Part shown: piece after piece, positions 22,945-59,661 of the stretch
Numbering within the stretch: the stretch's first letter is position 1
Layout: each line of letters begins with the position of its first letter
Assembly (NCBI RefSeq): GCF_001677475.2
Contig: NZ_CP015229.1
Length of the DNA: 64,000 nucleotides
Source: Escherichia coli
GTDB lineage: Bacteria; Pseudomonadota; Gammaproteobacteria; Enterobacterales; Enterobacteriaceae
Reading direction: 5' to 3' (one strand)
Translations under genes and position numbers: made by a program
Notes under the pieces: generated by a model
The model's input: only the letters and a program-made list of their open reading frames with translations
Database searches by the model: none
Told to the model about the DNA's origin: nothing

Positions 22945-24453
22945 ATGAATAAATCGCTGGTAGCGGTAGGCGTCATTGTTGCGCTAGGCGTAGTCTGGAC
23001 AGGCGGCGCATGGTATACAGGCAAGAAGATTGAAACCCATCTCGAAGACATGGTCGCGCAAGCGAACGCGCAACTCAAACTGACAGCTCCTGAATCCAAC
23101 CTGGAAGTCAGTTATCAAAACTATCATCGCGGCGTATTCAGCAGCCAGTTGCAACTGTTGTTGAAACCCATTGCCGGGAAAGAAAATCCGTGGATTAAAA
23201 GCGGTCAGAGCGTCATCTTCAACGAATCGGTTGATCATGGTCCCTTTCCCCTTGCCCAGCTCAAAAAACTGAACCTGATCCCGTCGATGGCATCAATTCA
23301 AACCACGCTGGTTAATAACGAAGTAAGCAAACCACTGTTTGATATGGCAAAAGGTGAAACGCCTTTTGAGATTAACTCCCGCATTGGTTACAGCGGAGAT
23401 TCCAGTTCCGATATTTCGCTCAAACCACTGAATTACGCGCAAAAGGATGAAAAAGTCGCCTTTAGCGGCGGCGAGTTCCAGTTAAATGCTGACAGAGACG
23501 GCAAAGCTATCTCCCTTTCCGGGGAGGCGCAAAGTGGTCGGATAGACGCAGTTAACGAATACAACCAGAAAGTGCAGTTGACCTTTAATAATCTGAAAAC
23601 CGACGGTTCCAGCACGCTGGCAAGTTTTGGTGAGCGCGTAGGAAACCAAAAACTGTCACTGGAAAAAATGACCATTTCAGTGGAAGGCAAAGAACTGGCA
23701 CTGCTGGAAGGCATGGAGATCAGCGGTAAATCGGATCTGGTCAATGATGGTAAAACGATCAATAGCCAACTGGATTACTCGCTAAACAGCCTGAAGGTAC
23801 AGAATCAGGATCTGGGCAGCGGCAAGCTGACTTTAAAAGTCGGCCAGATTGATGGTGAAGCCTGGCATCAGTTTAGCCAGCAATATAACGCGCAAACTCA
23901 GGCGCTGCTGGCACAGCCAGAAATTGCCAACAATCCCGAACTTTATCAGGAGAAAGTGACAGAAGCCTTCTTTAGCGCCCTGCCGCTGTTGCTGAAAGGC
24001 GATCCGGTGATTACTATTGCGCCGCTAAGCTGGAAAAACAGTCAGGGTGAAAGTGCGCTGAATCTTTCGCTGTTCCTGAAAGATCCGGCAACGACTAAAG
24101 AAGCGCCGCAAACGCTAGCGCAGGAAGTAGACCGCTCGGTTAAATCTCTGGATGCGAAACTTACCATTCCGGTGGATATGGCAACTGAGTTGATGACTCA
24201 GGTAGCGAAGCTGGAAGGTTATCAGGAAGATCAAGCGAAAAAACTGGCGAAACAGCAAGTTGAAGGTGCATCAGCAATGGGGCAGATGTTCCGTCTGACC
24301 ACCTTGCAGGACAATACCATCACCACCAGCCTGCAATATGCTAACGGTCAGATCACGTTAAACGGGCAGAAAATGCCACTGGAAGATTTTGTTGGGATGT
24401 TTGCGATGCCGGCATTAAACGTTCCGGCTGTACCCGCTATTCCGCAGCAGTAA
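22945..24453 (+). CDS. ydgA: DUF945-family secreted/periplasmic protein
   Basis: ORF track 502 aa with N-terminal signal anchor. Confidence 0.85.
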   Translation: MNKSLVAVGVIVALGVVWTGGAWYTGKKIETHLEDMVAQANAQLKLTAPESNLEVSYQNYHRGVFSSQLQLLLKPIAGKENPWIKSGQSVIFNESVDHGPFPLAQLKKLNLIPSMASIQTTLVNNEVSKPLFDMAKGETPFEINSRIGYSGDSSSDISLKPLNYAQKDEKVAFSGGEFQLNADRDGKAISLSGEAQSGRIDAVNEYNQKVQLTFNNLKTDGSSTLASFGERVGNQKLSLEKMTISVEGKELALLEGMEISGKSDLVNDGKTINSQLDYSLNSLKVQNQDLGSGKLTLKVGQIDGEAWHQFSQQYNAQTQALLAQPEIANNPELYQEKVTEAFFSALPLLLKGDPVITIAPLSWKNSQGESALNLSLFLKDPATTKEAPQTLAQEVDRSVKSLDAKLTIPVDMATELMTQVAKLEGYQEDQAKKLAKQQVEGASAMGQMFRLTTLQDNTITTSLQYANGQITLNGQKMPLEDFVGMFAMPALNVPAVPAIPQQ

Positions 24454-57650: not shown

Positions 57651-58547
57651 TTACGGTACGTCGTAACCCAGTGCCGCTTTACGGATACGGAACCATTGTT
57701 GACGGGTCATTTTCAGTGTTTCAGCTTCGACAGCTGCCCGTACGCGCTCAATTTTACCTGAGCCGATAATTGGCAGCGGCTGCGACGGTAAACGTAATAC
57801 CCAGGCGTAAACCACCTGTTCAATCGAGCCCGCGTTTAACTCCTCCGCCACCACAGCCAGTTCATCACGCAGCGGCTGGAAATAATCATCATTAAACAGA
57901 CGACCACCACCAAGGCAGGACCACGCCATCGGACGAACACGCAGTTGTTGCAGTTGGTCGAGCGTGCCATCCAGCAGTAACGGCTGATGCACCGGGGATA
58001 TTTCCACCTGATTAGTGGCAAGGGTAAACGGCAGGCGTGATTGCAACAGGGCAAATTGCGCGGGCGTGAAGTTGGATACGCCAAAATGGCGCACTTTGCC
58101 GCTCTGATGCAGATGTTTAAACGCGTCCGCCACTTCATCGGCATCCATTAACGGGTCTGGTCGGTGGATTAACAGCAGATCGAGATGATCGGTCGCGAGA
58201 TTAATTAGCGACTGTTCGGCGCTCTTAATGATGTGATCGCGGTCAGTGATGTAATGACCAATGACGTTTTCTTCACGCGCGGTCGTCGCGATACCGCATT
58301 TACTGACGATTTCCATCCGTTCACGCAGGTGAGGAGCCAGTTTCAGCGCCTCGCCAAACGCCGCTTCGCACTGATAGCCACCATAAATATCAGCATGGTC
58401 CACGGTGGTCACGCCGAGATCCAGATGCTCTTCAATAAAACTGACCAGCTGGCGGGCGGACATATTCCAGTCCATCAATCGCCAGTAGCCCATCACAAAA
58501 CGGGAAAACTCCGGGCCTTGCGGCGCAATAGTAATACGCTGAACCAT
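57651..58547 (-). CDS. ydhF: Aldo/keto reductase family oxidoreductase
   Basis: ORF track 298 aa. Confidence 0.85.
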   Translation of the reverse strand: MVQRITIAPQGPEFSRFVMGYWRLMDWNMSARQLVSFIEEHLDLGVTTVDHADIYGGYQCEAAFGEALKLAPHLRERMEIVSKCGIATTAREENVIGHYITDRDHIIKSAEQSLINLATDHLDLLLIHRPDPLMDADEVADAFKHLHQSGKVRHFGVSNFTPAQFALLQSRLPFTLATNQVEISPVHQPLLLDGTLDQLQQLRVRPMAWSCLGGGRLFNDDYFQPLRDELAVVAEELNAGSIEQVVYAWVLRLPSQPLPIIGSGKIERVRAAVEAETLKMTRQQWFRIRKAALGYDVP

Positions 58548-58595
58548 AATCGCTTCCTCTTATCAGATATGAGAGGAGTATACGCAAGATTAGGC

Positions 58596-58835
58596 TCAAA
58601 AGAGTGATGGTTGCTCCGGTTCGTCTGATGACGCTGGCTTATTTGCGCGTAATTTGCGCATTAATCGCTGCCGACAAAGGCGCAGCACCTCTTGTTTTTC
58701 GCCATCGCTCATTTTATTCCAGTTAAAACGCTCATCCCGACTACGAAAACAGCCGCGACAAAACCCGCGTTCGTCAGACTGGCAAATTCCCCGGCACGGG
58801 CTCTGGACGGGAAAGAACTCTAATTGCTCCGCCAC
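58596..58835 (-). CDS. ydhL: DUF1289 small Cys-rich protein
   Basis: ORF track 79 aa; CRGICQSDERGFCRGCFRS motif. Confidence 0.8.
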   Translation of the reverse strand: MAEQLEFFPVQSPCRGICQSDERGFCRGCFRSRDERFNWNKMSDGEKQEVLRLCRQRLMRKLRANKPASSDEPEQPSLF

Positions 58836-59031
58836 TTCGCCCTCCTCAGATAAGTTTTACTCTAAATAATTCGAGTTGCAGGAAGGCGACGAGTGAATGA
58901 ATCCCCTGGAGCTTACTAAAGTAAGTGACTGGGGTGAGTGAACGTGGTCGCAGCACATGCAACTTGAAGTATGACGAGTGTATTACCACTATTGAAGCTC
59001 TTAATACCCAAAGTAGCAACTTTGCTTGCAC

Positions 59032-59047
59032 TAGACCGACTGGTCTA
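59032..59047. promoter_or_regulatory. NemR box TAGACCGACTGGTCTA (inverted TAGACC arms) in ydhL/nemR divergent region
   Basis: Matches published NemR operator; 15 bp upstream of nemR start. Confidence 0.7.
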
Positions 59048-59061
59048 CTACACTCCAACGC

Positions 59062-59661
59062 ATGAACAAACACACCGAACATGATACTCGCGAACATCTC
59101 CTGGCGACGGGCGAGCAACTTTGCCTGCAACGTGGATTCACCGGGATGGGGCTAAGCGAATTACTAAAAACCGCTGAAGTGCCGAAAGGTTCCTTCTATC
59201 ACTACTTTCGCTCTAAAGAAGCGTTTGGCGTTGCTATGCTTGAGCGCCATTACGCCGCATATCACCAGCGACTGACTGAGTTGCTGCAATCCGGTGAAGG
59301 TAACTACCGCGACCGCATACTGGCTTATTACCAGCAAACACTGAACCAGTTTTGCCAACATGGAACCATCAGTGGTTGCCTGACAGTAAAACTCTCTGCC
59401 GAAGTGTGCGATCTGTCAGAAGATATGCGTAGCGCGATGGATAAAGGCGCTCGCGGCGTGATCGCCCTGCTCTCGCAGGCGCTGGAAAATGGCCGTGATA
59501 GCCATTGTTTAACCTTTTGTGGCGAACCGCTGCAACAGGCACAAGTGCTTTACGCACTATGGCTGGGTGCGAATCTGCAGGCCAAAATTTCGCGCAATTC
59601 CGAGCCACTGGAAAACGCGCTGGCACATGTAAAAACCATTATTGCGACGCCTGCCGTTTAG
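59062..59661 (+). CDS. nemR: TetR-family electrophile-sensing repressor NemR
   Basis: ORF track 199 aa. Confidence 0.9.
   Translation: MNKHTEHDTREHLLATGEQLCLQRGFTGMGLSELLKTAEVPKGSFYHYFRSKEAFGVAMLERHYAAYHQRLTELLQSGEGNYRDRILAYYQQTLNQFCQHGTISGCLTVKLSAEVCDLSEDMRSAMDKGARGVIALLSQALENGRDSHCLTFCGEPLQQAQVLYALWLGANLQAKISRNSEPLENALAHVKTIIATPAV

What the first reader, a model, noticed from the sequence alone, without database searches (positions are those of the whole stretch)
58596..59061. ydhL shares the NemR-box intergenic region with nemR
The small Cys-rich DUF1289 protein gene ydhL is transcribed divergently from nemR, and the NemR operator lies between them. ydhL could be co-regulated by electrophile or chlorine stress, and its CxxxC...CxxC motif suggests a metal or redox role.
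Basis: inference. Interest (0 to 1): 0.35.

Follow-up and report, generated by a model that had tools for sequence, protein, structure and literature searches.

The report
ydhL beside the nemR operator
The small cysteine-rich gene ydhL does sit back-to-back with nemR, but the NemR operator belongs to nemR's own promoter, ydhL has a separate conserved promoter, and the only unusual local feature is a repeat element (ERIC) inserted in ydhL's leader.

Summary
ydhL (58596-58835, minus strand, 79 aa, DUF1289, C14-x3-C18-x7-C26-x2-C29) diverges from nemR (59062-59661). A perfect NemR palindrome, TAGACCGACTGGTCTA, lies between them at 59032-59047.

The co-regulation idea is not supported.
- The box fills the 17-bp spacer of the leaderless nemR promoter. 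It lies at -48 to -63 from the ydhL start site.
- Across 80 Enterobacterales loci the box stays 14-18 nt (26 in one Yersinia locus) from the nemR ATG. Its distance to ydhL ranges from 70 to 3,487 bp.
- No second box appears upstream of ydhL where other genes separate the pair.
- ydhL keeps its own promoter (TTGCnn-N16-18-TTCA[AC]T), which matches a published K-12 start site. It is probably co-transcribed with ydhF.
- Published RNA polymerase ChIP-chip after methylglyoxal covers nemR-nemA but never ydhF.

It lengthens the leader from 25 to 149 nt. It is absent from all 5,426 complete E. coli genomes searched and present at the same site in E. albertii and E. whittamii.

One speculative lead: DUF1289 proteins carry strongly enriched terminal QxxLF motifs that resemble beta-clamp-binding motifs.

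The finding is ordinary overall.

The parts
58596..58835 (-). ydhL coding sequence (GTG start, 79 aa, DUF1289; Cys14, 18, 26, 29; N-terminal QLEFF and C-terminal QPSLF)
   Evidence: ORF list. Pfam PF06945 at 69.3 bits. The exact protein is widespread in E. coli assemblies. Conserved columns shown.
58840..58847 (-). ydhL Shine-Dalgarno sequence GAGGAGGG, 4 nt before the GTG
   Evidence: Read directly from the sequence. Conserved in related loci.
58857..58980 (.). ERIC (enterobacterial repetitive intergenic consensus) element, 124 bp, inserted at +5 of the ydhL transcript. Terminal inverted arms 58859-58880 and 58958-58979; central palindrome 58903-58934.
   Evidence: Appears as a 124-column gap against E. 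coli. No genome among 5,426 complete E. coli genomes carries it at this site. The family has a median of 10 copies per E. coli genome. 21 of 22 bases match the ERIC2 primer sequence, recalled from memory. Inverted repeats found. A weak full-length Rfam hit to V_AS5 spans 58855-58978. Copies at the same site in E. whittamii (96.9% identical) and E. albertii (89.1%). The allele is confirmed in two independent NCBI assemblies.
58984..58984 (-). Inferred ydhL transcription start site (A), giving a 149-nt 5' UTR here against 25 nt in K-12
   Evidence: Placed by homology to the K-12 start site at 1723969, with upstream sequence ...TTGCTACTTTGGACATTAACAGCTTCAATAATGGTA (Kim et al. 2012 supplement). 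Coordinates computed.
58991..58996 (-). ydhL promoter -10 hexamer TTCAAT
   Evidence: The pattern TTGCnn-N16-18-TTCA[AC]T occurs in 62 of 80 loci, including 21 of 22 where nemR is not adjacent.
59014..59019 (-). ydhL promoter -35 hexamer TTGCTA (17-bp spacer)
59026..59031 (+). nemR promoter -35-like hexamer TTGCAC, 6 bp from the ydhL -35 (back-to-back promoters)
   Evidence: Inferred from spacing relative to the published K-12 nemR start site and the sequence.
59032..59047 (.). NemR operator (NemR box), the perfect palindrome TAGACC-N4-GGTCTA. It fills the nemR promoter spacer and lies at -48 to -63 from the ydhL start site.
   Evidence: Fixed 14-18 nt (26 in one Yersinia locus) from the nemR ATG across related loci. 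A G-to-A change at -19 of nemR, inside the GGTCTA half-site, was selected in four honey-evolved isolates.
59049..59054 (+). nemR promoter -10-like hexamer TACACT
   Evidence: Seven nt upstream of the published start site, which is the A of the ATG.
59062..59661 (+). nemR coding sequence (TetR-family repressor). The mRNA is leaderless, starting at 59062.
   Evidence: The 5' UTR length is 0 in both E. coli and K. pneumoniae.
57651..58547 (-). ydhF (aldo-keto reductase), 48 bp downstream of ydhL on the same strand; probably the second gene of a ydhL-ydhF transcript
   Evidence: No separate start site appears in the K-12 list. ydhF follows ydhL on the same strand in 70 of 80 loci. No terminator-like site lies in the gap.

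Best explanation
This is the known ydhL/nemR divergent region of Escherichia. It holds two back-to-back, separate sigma-70 promoters.

The nemR promoter (-35 TTGCAC, -10 TACACT) makes a leaderless nemRA-gloA mRNA. NemR shuts it off by binding the 16-bp palindrome that fills its spacer. Electrophiles and HOCl release NemR.

ydhL is driven by its own conserved promoter (TTGCTA-N17-TTCAAT, start site at 58984). It is probably co-transcribed with the aldo-keto reductase gene ydhF. From the ydhL side the NemR box lies at -48 to -63, upstream of the core promoter, so NemR is not expected to occlude it. Sharing the intergenic region is a consequence of gene order, not a conserved regulatory link.

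In this lineage a 124-bp ERIC element is inserted at +5 of the ydhL transcript. The mRNA therefore carries a 149-nt leader, and the element's CCUUCC stretch may pair with the ydhL Shine-Dalgarno sequence and dampen translation.

YdhL is most likely a small metal-binding Cys4 domain (zinc or iron-sulfur) followed by a basic helix, with conserved short peptide motifs at both ends that dock it onto a partner protein.

What is shown: the coordinates, the start sites (from the K-12 literature), the comparative behaviour of the box, and the ERIC polymorphism. What is inferred: NemR-independence of ydhL, the ydhL-ydhF operon, any effect of ERIC on expression, and the biochemical role of YdhL.
For: - ORFs and domains.
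- Box position.
- K-12 start sites: the ydhL 5' UTR is 25 nt with a TTGCTA/TTCAAT promoter, and nemR is leaderless, also in K. pneumoniae.
- The box stays 14-18 nt (26 in one Yersinia locus) from the nemR ATG in all lineages that have nemR. Its distance to ydhL is 70-3,487 bp, and no box (up to 2 mismatches) lies upstream of ydhL when the two genes are separated.
- The ydhL promoter is conserved in 21 of 22 separated lineages.
- SELEX gives nemR as the single target and nemRA-gloA as the regulon.
- An operator point mutation selected under methylglyoxal-rich honey lies in the GGTCTA half-site.
- RNA polymerase ChIP-chip after methylglyoxal is asymmetric, extending toward nemA.
- There is no ydhF start site, and ydhF adjacency is conserved.
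- ERIC evidence.
- Predicted Shine-Dalgarno accessibility is 0.002-0.07 with ERIC against 0.33 without it.
- The four Cys and basic residues are nearly invariant, and the AlphaFold2 core is confident (pLDDT above 88 for residues 11-60).
Against: - No direct ydhL expression measurement in a nemR mutant or under NEM/HOCl could be retrieved. The primary NemR papers (Umezawa 2008, Gray 2013) were not held.
- In one ChIP-chip experiment the methylglyoxal-enriched segment covers 60% of ydhL. In a UPEC HOCl RNA-seq a neighbouring locus tag, c2040, rises about 2-fold. Its identity (ydhF, ydhL or another ORF) could not be verified.
- ydhL overexpression gave H2O2 and HOCl resistance in an ASKA screen, which is compatible with a stress role.
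- The K-12 ydhL start site rests on only 2 reads.
- The predicted Shine-Dalgarno occlusion by ERIC is no stronger than in 25% of shuffled-insert controls.
- The start site in this ERIC-bearing lineage is inferred by homology, not measured.
Confidence: 0.7

Rival explanations
1. One reading: NemR bound at the shared operator also represses ydhL (and ydhF). In that case electrophiles or HOCl would co-induce ydhL-ydhF with nemRA-gloA, and YdhL would act in redox or electrophile defence.
For: - The operator is only 12 bp from the ydhL -35, and TetR-family footprints can exceed the palindrome (inference).
- ydhF is an aldo-keto reductase, a plausible aldehyde-detoxifying partner of NemA and GloA.
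- ASKA overexpression of ydhL, and of gloA, gave both H2O2 and HOCl resistance.
- The ChIP-chip segment reaches 60% of ydhL in one experiment.
- c2040 rises about 2-fold under HOCl.
- An early SELEX summary counted 2 peaks and 4 possible targets for NemR.
Against: - The box tracks nemR, never ydhL, across lineages.
- ydhL keeps the same promoter without any box when it is separated from nemR, or where nemR is absent.
- The box lies outside the ydhL core promoter, at -48 to -63.
- A later SELEX summary lists nemR as the single target.
- Methylglyoxal-induced polymerase occupancy never covers ydhF.
- In this window's lineage, ERIC additionally separates the ydhL coding sequence from the promoter region.
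Confidence: 0.15
2. Promoter interference: the two -35 elements are only 6 bp apart, so RNA polymerase at a derepressed nemR promoter would compete with polymerase at the ydhL promoter. ydhL would then be unaffected or slightly reduced when NemR is released, an inverse coupling rather than co-induction.
For: The geometry: start sites 78 bp apart, and -35 hexamers at 59014-59019 and 59026-59031. The usual polymerase upstream contacts reach about -55 (general knowledge, inference).
Against: No data bear on it. Divergent transcription can also stimulate a neighbour through negative supercoiling. The roughly 2-fold rise of c2040 under HOCl, if c2040 is ydhF or ydhL, would argue against a decrease.
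Confidence: 0.1
3. On function: YdhL is a small Cys4 adaptor that binds the beta sliding clamp (DnaN) through its N-terminal QLEFF and C-terminal QPSLF motifs, and acts in replication or DNA-damage tolerance rather than in electrophile chemistry.
For: - Motif enrichment in 138 DUF1289 representatives. 113 have QxxhF (h = L, I, V, M or F) N-terminal of the Cys core; shuffles give a mean of 5.6 and a maximum of 13. 61 have one or more in the tail, 101 motifs in all; shuffles give 7.4. A stricter motif gives 65 tail motifs against 1.0 in shuffles.
- The last motif ends at, or 1 residue before, the C-terminus in 40 of those 61. Long-tailed members carry 2-4 copies such as QFDLF, QLDMF and QADLF.
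- The motifs match the clamp-binding consensus QL[SD]LF (Dalrymple 2001, recalled from memory; clamp-binding motifs are described as penta- or hexapeptides in the abstracts).
- Keio ydhL deletion mutants show reduced ciprofloxacin tolerance. They also lose rifampin-induced ofloxacin persistence, in the same list as priA, uvrD, ruvA, recA, recC, recG and recN.
Against: - The AlphaFold2 run on a DnaN-linker-YdhL fusion was uninformative: DnaN itself folded poorly and both YdhL termini scored 41-44 pLDDT.
- The genomic neighbourhoods of distant homologues show no consistent DNA-metabolism linkage.
- Short motifs can serve other partners.
- The Keio phenotypes could be polar effects on ydhF or nemR.
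- No listed result of the full-text search linked ydhL to the clamp.
Confidence: 0.3

Closest known systems
E. coli K-12 ydhL (b1648) / nemR (b1649) intergenic region with the NemR box (Umezawa et al. 2008, recalled from memory; nemRA-gloA operon in Ozyamak 2013, Gray 2013, Lee 2013)
   Same: Same gene order. The NemR palindrome, the nemR -35/-10 and the ydhL -35/-10 match K-12 apart from one base in the discriminator just downstream of the ydhL -10. NemA and YdhF are identical to the K-12 UniProt entries NEMA_ECOLI and YDHF_ECOLI, and NemR and YdhL exactly match common E. coli alleles.
   Different: This lineage has a 124-bp ERIC element between the ydhL promoter and the ydhL ribosome-binding site. 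The intergenic region is 226 bp instead of 102 bp, and the inferred ydhL leader is 149 nt instead of 25 nt.
ERIC / IRU elements (Hulton et al. 1991; De Gregorio et al. 2005 for effects on transcripts; both recalled from memory)
   Same: About 125 bp, an imperfect palindrome, dispersed at a median of 10 copies per E. coli genome, and located in a transcribed non-coding region next to a gene.
   Different: This insertion site is empty in all 5,426 complete E. coli genomes searched and filled in E. albertii, E. whittamii and this lineage. Its effect on ydhL is only predicted.
TetR-family autorepressors with the operator inside their own promoter and a divergent neighbour (e.g. tetR/tetA, acrR/acrAB)
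   Same: A palindromic operator in an intergenic region between divergent genes, with the repressor released by ligand or modification.
   Different: In the classic cases the divergent gene is the regulated target and the operators overlap both promoters. Here the regulated genes (nemA, gloA) lie downstream of nemR in the same operon. The divergent neighbour, ydhL, has its core promoter outside the operator and does not keep the operator when separated.
Bacterial beta-clamp-binding proteins carrying QL[SD]LF-type motifs (Pol II, Pol IV, UmuC, Hda, DnaE; recalled from memory)
   Same: Terminal penta-peptides QLEFF and QPSLF in YdhL, and QFDLF, QLDMF or QADLF, often at the extreme C-terminus, in homologues.
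   Different: No binding has been shown, and the structure-prediction test was inconclusive. The Cys4 domain has no similarity to known clamp partners or to any solved fold.

Membership tests
Pfam DUF1289 (PF06945) | HMM match above the gathering threshold | tested here: met
   69.3 bits against a cut-off of 27, E = 2.4e-19, residues 12-57.
Pfam DUF1289 (PF06945) | Four conserved N-terminal cysteines | tested here: met
   C14, C18, C26 and C29 are each conserved in at least 90% of 40 diverse homologues. 138 of 148 representatives contain Cx3C-x5-9-CxxC.
NemR regulon (for ydhL) | NemR operator overlapping the core promoter of the gene | tested here: not met
   The box at 59032-59047 lies at -48 to -63 from the ydhL start site and 12 bp upstream of the ydhL -35. 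It fills the nemR promoter spacer instead.
NemR regulon (for ydhL) | Operator retained with the gene across lineages | tested here: not met
   The box stays 14-18 nt (26 in one Yersinia locus) from nemR. No box (up to 2 mismatches) lies upstream of ydhL in the 22 loci where other genes intervene, nor in Photorhabdus, which lacks nemR.
NemR regulon (for ydhL) | Derepression in a nemR mutant or by NEM, methylglyoxal or HOCl | tested here: inconclusive
   Only indirect published data were available. ChIP-chip after methylglyoxal covers nemR-nemA, at most 60% of ydhL in one experiment, and never ydhF. An HOCl RNA-seq shows nemR up about 8-fold and a neighbouring tag, c2040, up about 2-fold, with that tag's identity unverified. 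SELEX gives a single target.
NemR (TetR family) for the neighbouring gene | TetR_N helix-turn-helix domain plus TetR_C_13 domain, and identity to E. coli NemR | tested here: met
   Pfam hits. The exact sequence is held under the name NemR [Escherichia coli].
ERIC / IRU repeat | An imperfect palindrome of about 125 bp with terminal inverted arms | tested here: met
   The insertion is 124 bp. Arms at 58859-58880 and 58958-58979 are 77% complementary, and there is a central palindrome.
ERIC / IRU repeat | Dispersed multi-copy family in enterobacterial genomes with the conserved core sequence | tested here: met
   2-16 places per E. coli genome (median 10), with the best copies about 90% identical. 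21 of 22 bases match AAGTAAGTGACTGGGGTGAGCG, the ERIC2 primer recalled from memory.
Leaderless mRNA (nemR) | Transcription start at the A of the start codon | tested here: met
   In K-12 the start site at 1724047 equals the first base of the coding sequence, and the K. pneumoniae orthologue also has a 0-nt 5' UTR (Kim et al. 2012 supplement). The promoter sequence in the window is identical. This was not measured in this strain.
Beta-clamp-binding proteins | QL[SD]LF-like penta-peptide in a terminal or disordered region | tested here: met
   QLEFF at residues 4-8 and QPSLF at residues 75-79. The family-wide enrichment far exceeds shuffled controls.
Beta-clamp-binding proteins | Physical docking of the motif in the clamp's hydrophobic cleft | tested here: inconclusive
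   The AlphaFold2 model of the DnaN-linker-YdhL fusion was poor, with mean pLDDT 61.7 and the motif blocks at 41-44. Biochemistry cannot be done with these tools.
Metal-binding (zinc or iron-sulfur) small protein | Bound metal or cluster | not testable with these tools
   Only the conserved Cys4 pattern and a confident compact core are available. No fold match identifies the site type.

The most novel reading that the evidence does not exclude
YdhL/DUF1289 may be an unrecognised family of small Cys4 proteins that bind the beta sliding clamp through QLxLF-type motifs at one or both termini, with several copies in long-tailed homologues. It would act in replication or DNA-damage tolerance. That would account for the fluoroquinolone-persistence phenotypes of ydhL deletion mutants and possibly for the oxidant resistance seen on overexpression. 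Its position next to nemR would then be incidental.
Probability: 0.3. Interest if true: 0.6.

Novelty: already known. Interest (0 to 1): 0.22.

Why it matters
As written, the finding restates a known gene arrangement. The NemR box, the nemRA-gloA operon and both K-12 start sites are already published.

The practical lesson is a caution. An operator lying between divergent genes does not make both genes targets. Here the comparative data show the operator belongs to nemR alone.

Two side results could be worth small follow-ups:
- A natural pair of alleles with and without ERIC in the ydhL leader, which allows a test of how ERIC elements change expression of a downstream gene.
- The terminal QxxLF motifs of DUF1289. 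If they bind the beta clamp, a function would be assigned to a widespread uncharacterised family (1,316 clusters at 50% identity) and to an E. coli y-gene with quinolone-tolerance phenotypes.

Tried and rejected
- The consensus promoter and terminator scan of 58400-59300 found no promoter at its threshold and only one weak terminator-like site inside ydhL. The promoters were instead defined from published start sites and conservation.
- Rfam gave only a sub-threshold hit to V_AS5, which I take to be an ERIC-like copy.
- The primary NemR papers (Umezawa 2008, Gray 2013), Thomason 2015 and the Conway 2014 supplement were not held.
- The identity of CFT073 locus tag c2040, about 2-fold up under HOCl, could not be established.
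- A first MAFFT alignment for the fusion mis-aligned the YdhL homologues onto DnaN (A3) and was discarded. The paired-fusion alignment (A4) gave a poor AlphaFold2 model, so the clamp-docking test is inconclusive.
- ERIC-mediated masking of the ydhL Shine-Dalgarno sequence is predicted, orientation-specific and seen in all three ERIC alleles. However, 25% of shuffled inserts do as well, so I do not claim it as significant. The z-score of the fold was only -1.6.
- Neighbourhoods of distant DUF1289 genes showed no TetR or nemR linkage and no consistent operon.
- A second NemR-box-like site at 24128-24143 has 2 mismatches and is at the level expected by chance.
- The source organism could not be named. 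I considered Shigella and think it unlikely, because the 64-kb window aligns to E. coli genomes with no sign of an IS insertion and near-identical contigs are labelled E. coli.
Full report
**Observation**

The window around 58-60 kb carries ydhK, sodC, ydhF and ydhL, then nemR, nemA, gloA and rnt in the opposite direction. This is the standard Escherichia arrangement.

- ydhL is the minus-strand ORF 58596-58835, with a GTG start and 79 aa. It matches Pfam DUF1289 at 69.3 bits against a cut-off of 27. Its cysteines are C14-x3-C18-x7-C26-x2-C29.
- nemR runs 59062-59661 on the plus strand. It has TetR_N and TetR_C_13 domains, and its sequence is held as E. coli NemR.
- The perfect palindrome TAGACCGACTGGTCTA lies at 59032-59047. 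It is the only exact match in the window.

The intergenic region here is 226 bp, against 102 bp in E. coli. An alignment with an E. coli B genome shows a single 124-bp insertion at about 58857-58980.

- None of 5,426 complete RefSeq E. coli genomes covers 80% or more of 58780-59120, so none carries the insertion at this site.
- The inserted sequence belongs to a dispersed family with 2-16 copies per E. coli genome, median 10.
- It is an imperfect palindrome.
- It matches the ERIC2 primer sequence at 21 of 22 bases (primer recalled from memory).
- It gives a weak full-length hit to Rfam V_AS5.

I call it an ERIC element.

The same site is filled in E. whittamii (copy 96.9% identical) and E. albertii (89.1%). 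It is empty in Escherichia sp. E1V33 and in the E. coli representative genomes. Two independent NCBI assemblies, 99.92-99.97% identical to the window, also carry it, so it is not an assembly artefact.

The whole window is at best 98.5-98.9% identical to any complete E. coli genome searched. Its lineage is therefore not represented in that collection.

**Promoter anatomy**

Published start-site profiling for K-12 (Kim et al. 2012, supplement) gives two start sites.

- The ydhL start site is at 1723969. The 5' UTR is 25 nt and the upstream sequence is ...TTGCTACTTTGGACATTAACAGCTTCAATAATGGTA. This rests on only 2 reads.
- The nemR start site falls exactly on the A of its ATG, so the mRNA is leaderless. 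This rests on 15 reads, and the K. pneumoniae orthologue is also leaderless.

Transferred to the window:

| Element | ydhL (minus strand) | nemR (plus strand) |
|---|---|---|
| -35 | TTGCTA, 59019-59014 | TTGCAC, 59026-59031 |
| -10 | TTCAAT, 58996-58991 | TACACT, 59049-59054 |
| Start site | 58984 | 59062 |

The NemR box fills the 17-bp nemR spacer, the classic position for repression by occlusion. From the ydhL side it lies at -48 to -63, outside the core promoter. The two -35 elements are 6 bp apart, back to back.

Experimental evolution supports the operator assignment. A G-to-A change at -84/-19 (ydhL/nemR) is the second G of the GGTCTA half-site. It arose in four isolates evolved on methylglyoxal-rich honey, alongside nemR coding mutations in other isolates.

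**Comparative test of co-regulation**

I fetched 80 Enterobacterales loci around ydhL and mapped the neighbouring genes.

- In every lineage with nemR, the box (0-2 mismatches) sits 14-18 nt upstream of the nemR ATG, except 26 nt in one Yersinia locus. Its distance to ydhL ranges from 70 to 3,487 bp.
- In Lelliottia, Pseudenterobacter, Enterobacter, Buttiauxella, Cedecea, Yersinia, Erwinia and Winslowiella, other DNA separates the two genes. In the two such loci I inspected (Lelliottia L013, Yersinia L073) it is an EptA-like gene. In all of these lineages the box stays with nemR and no box lies upstream of ydhL.
- Photorhabdus has ydhL next to gloA, with neither nemR nor a box.
- By contrast, the ydhL promoter pattern TTGCnn-N16-18-TTCA[AC]T, placed 25-34 nt before the start codon, occurs in 62 of 80 loci. 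That includes 21 of the 22 separated ones.
- ydhF follows ydhL on the same strand in 70 of 80 loci, usually 47-59 bp downstream.
- The K-12 start-site list has no ydhF start site, and the gap holds no terminator-like site. A ydhL-ydhF transcript is therefore likely.

**Published expression evidence**

- The genomic SELEX summary lists nemR as NemR's single target and nemRA-gloA as its regulon. An earlier summary counted 2 peaks and 4 possible targets.
- RNA polymerase ChIP-chip after methylglyoxal gives an enriched 1.5-kb segment starting at 1724000 or at 1723800. It covers nemR fully and nemA 56-74%. It covers ydhL at 0% or 60%, and never ydhF. At ChIP-chip resolution this looks like spill-over from the promoter peak.
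- In UPEC HOCl RNA-seq, nemR, nemA and gloA change by log2 3.0, 2.7 and 1.0. A neighbouring tag, c2040, changes by 0.97, but I could not verify which gene it is.
- ASKA overexpression of ydhL gave H2O2 and HOCl resistance.

None of this demonstrates NemR control of ydhL. A modest indirect effect is not excluded.

**The ERIC element and ydhL**

The insertion point is +5 of the inferred ydhL transcript, so the element would be transcribed as part of a 149-nt leader.

Partition-function folding predicts that the element's CGCCUUCCU stretch pairs with the ydhL Shine-Dalgarno sequence.

| Leader | Probability that the Shine-Dalgarno sequence is unpaired |
|---|---|
| Three ERIC-bearing alleles | 0.002-0.074 |
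| ERIC-less alleles | 0.33 |
| ERIC inverted (control) | 0.34 |

However, 25% of shuffled inserts reach the same occlusion, and the fold z-score is only -1.6. I treat this as a weak prediction.

**The YdhL protein**

- YdhL is at least 78% identical across Enterobacteriaceae. DUF1289 spans 1,316 clusters at 50% identity.
- The nearly invariant positions are Q4, F8, P13, the four Cys, G24, G28, R31, R33, E35, R36, W39 and R57.
- AlphaFold2 gives a confident core: pLDDT above 88 for residues 11-60, short bridges, then helices 33-37 and 44-65.
- A metal site (zinc or iron-sulfur) is plausible but untested.

**An unexpected feature: terminal QxxLF motifs**

The family carries QxxLF-type motifs at both ends. 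In 138 representatives:

| Measure | Observed | Shuffled controls |
|---|---|---|
| Proteins with QxxhF N-terminal of the Cys core | 113 | mean 5.6, max 13 |
| Proteins with one or more in the C-terminal tail | 61 (101 motifs) | mean 7.4 proteins |
| Stricter motif, tail copies | 65 | mean 1.0 |

The last motif ends at, or 1 residue before, the C-terminus in 40 of the 61. Long-tailed members have 2-4 copies such as QFDLF, QLDMF and QADLF.

These motifs resemble the beta-clamp-binding consensus QL[SD]LF (recalled from memory; clamp-binding motifs are described as penta- or hexapeptides in the abstracts).

Keio ydhL deletion mutants have reduced ciprofloxacin tolerance. They also lose rifampin-induced ofloxacin persistence, in the same list as priA, uvrD, ruvA, recA, recC, recG and recN.

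An AlphaFold2 run on a DnaN-linker-YdhL fusion was uninformative because DnaN itself folded poorly. Neighbourhoods of distant homologues show no consistent linkage to DNA metabolism or to TetR regulators. I rate clamp binding at about 0.3.

**Verdict**

The co-regulation reading is not supported by operator position, comparative genomics or the available expression data, although no decisive expression experiment was accessible. The ERIC-bearing allele is a minor new instance of a known element. The clamp-motif lead is the only part with real potential, and it is speculative.

Noticed in passing
window 59333-59349 (minus strand), inside nemR: A sigma-54-type site, CTGGTTCAGTGTTTGCT, lies antisense within nemR and points toward ydhL. 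It is identical to the ChIP-seq site IA14 of Bonocora et al. 2015, listed there 363 bp from ydhL in K-12. With the ERIC insertion it would be about 487 bp away here.
   Followed up: partly
whole window 1-64000: The best identity to any of 5,426 complete RefSeq E. coli genomes is only 98.5-98.9%, with full-length collinear coverage and no sign of an IS insertion. Near-identical contigs (99.92-99.97%) exist in NCBI assemblies GCA_019138635.1 and GCA_019137315.1. NemA and YdhF are identical to the K-12 proteins despite about 1.5% DNA divergence.
   Followed up: partly
window 58596-58835 (YdhL residues 4-8 and 75-79); homologues P0121-P0268: DUF1289 proteins carry conserved QLEFF/QLELF motifs at the N-terminus and QxSLF/QFDLF/QLDMF motifs at or near the C-terminus, with up to 4 copies in long tails. 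They resemble beta-clamp-binding motifs and are far more frequent than in shuffled controls.
   Followed up: partly
L013 2224-4029 and L073 2190-3827: In Lelliottia and Yersinia, an ORF of about 545-600 aa resembling EptA (a membrane sulfatase-family protein) lies between ydhL and nemR, divergent from ydhL. The other separated lineages were not inspected. In these two loci ydhL shares its upstream region with that gene rather than with nemR.
   Followed up: partly
window 57651-58547 / 58548-58595: ydhF starts 48 bp after the ydhL stop codon with no terminator-like site between them. The K-12 start-site list has no ydhF start site, so ydhL-ydhF is probably one transcript. That list also has an internal start site assigned to sodC, inside ydhF (K-12 position 1722884).
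   Followed up: partly
proteins P0144 and P0220: Some DUF1289 proteins are fused to a C-terminal bacterial SH3 domain (SH3_3). In a marine gammaproteobacterial group the gene sits in a recurring nth - gloA - methyltransferase - cold-shock gene - DUF1289 neighbourhood, so linkage to gloA predates the nemRA genes.
   Followed up: no
window 24128-24143: A second NemR-box-like site, TAGACCGCTCGGTTAA, with 2 mismatches. This is at the frequency expected by chance: 29 of 100 shuffles give 2 or more matches.
   Followed up: no
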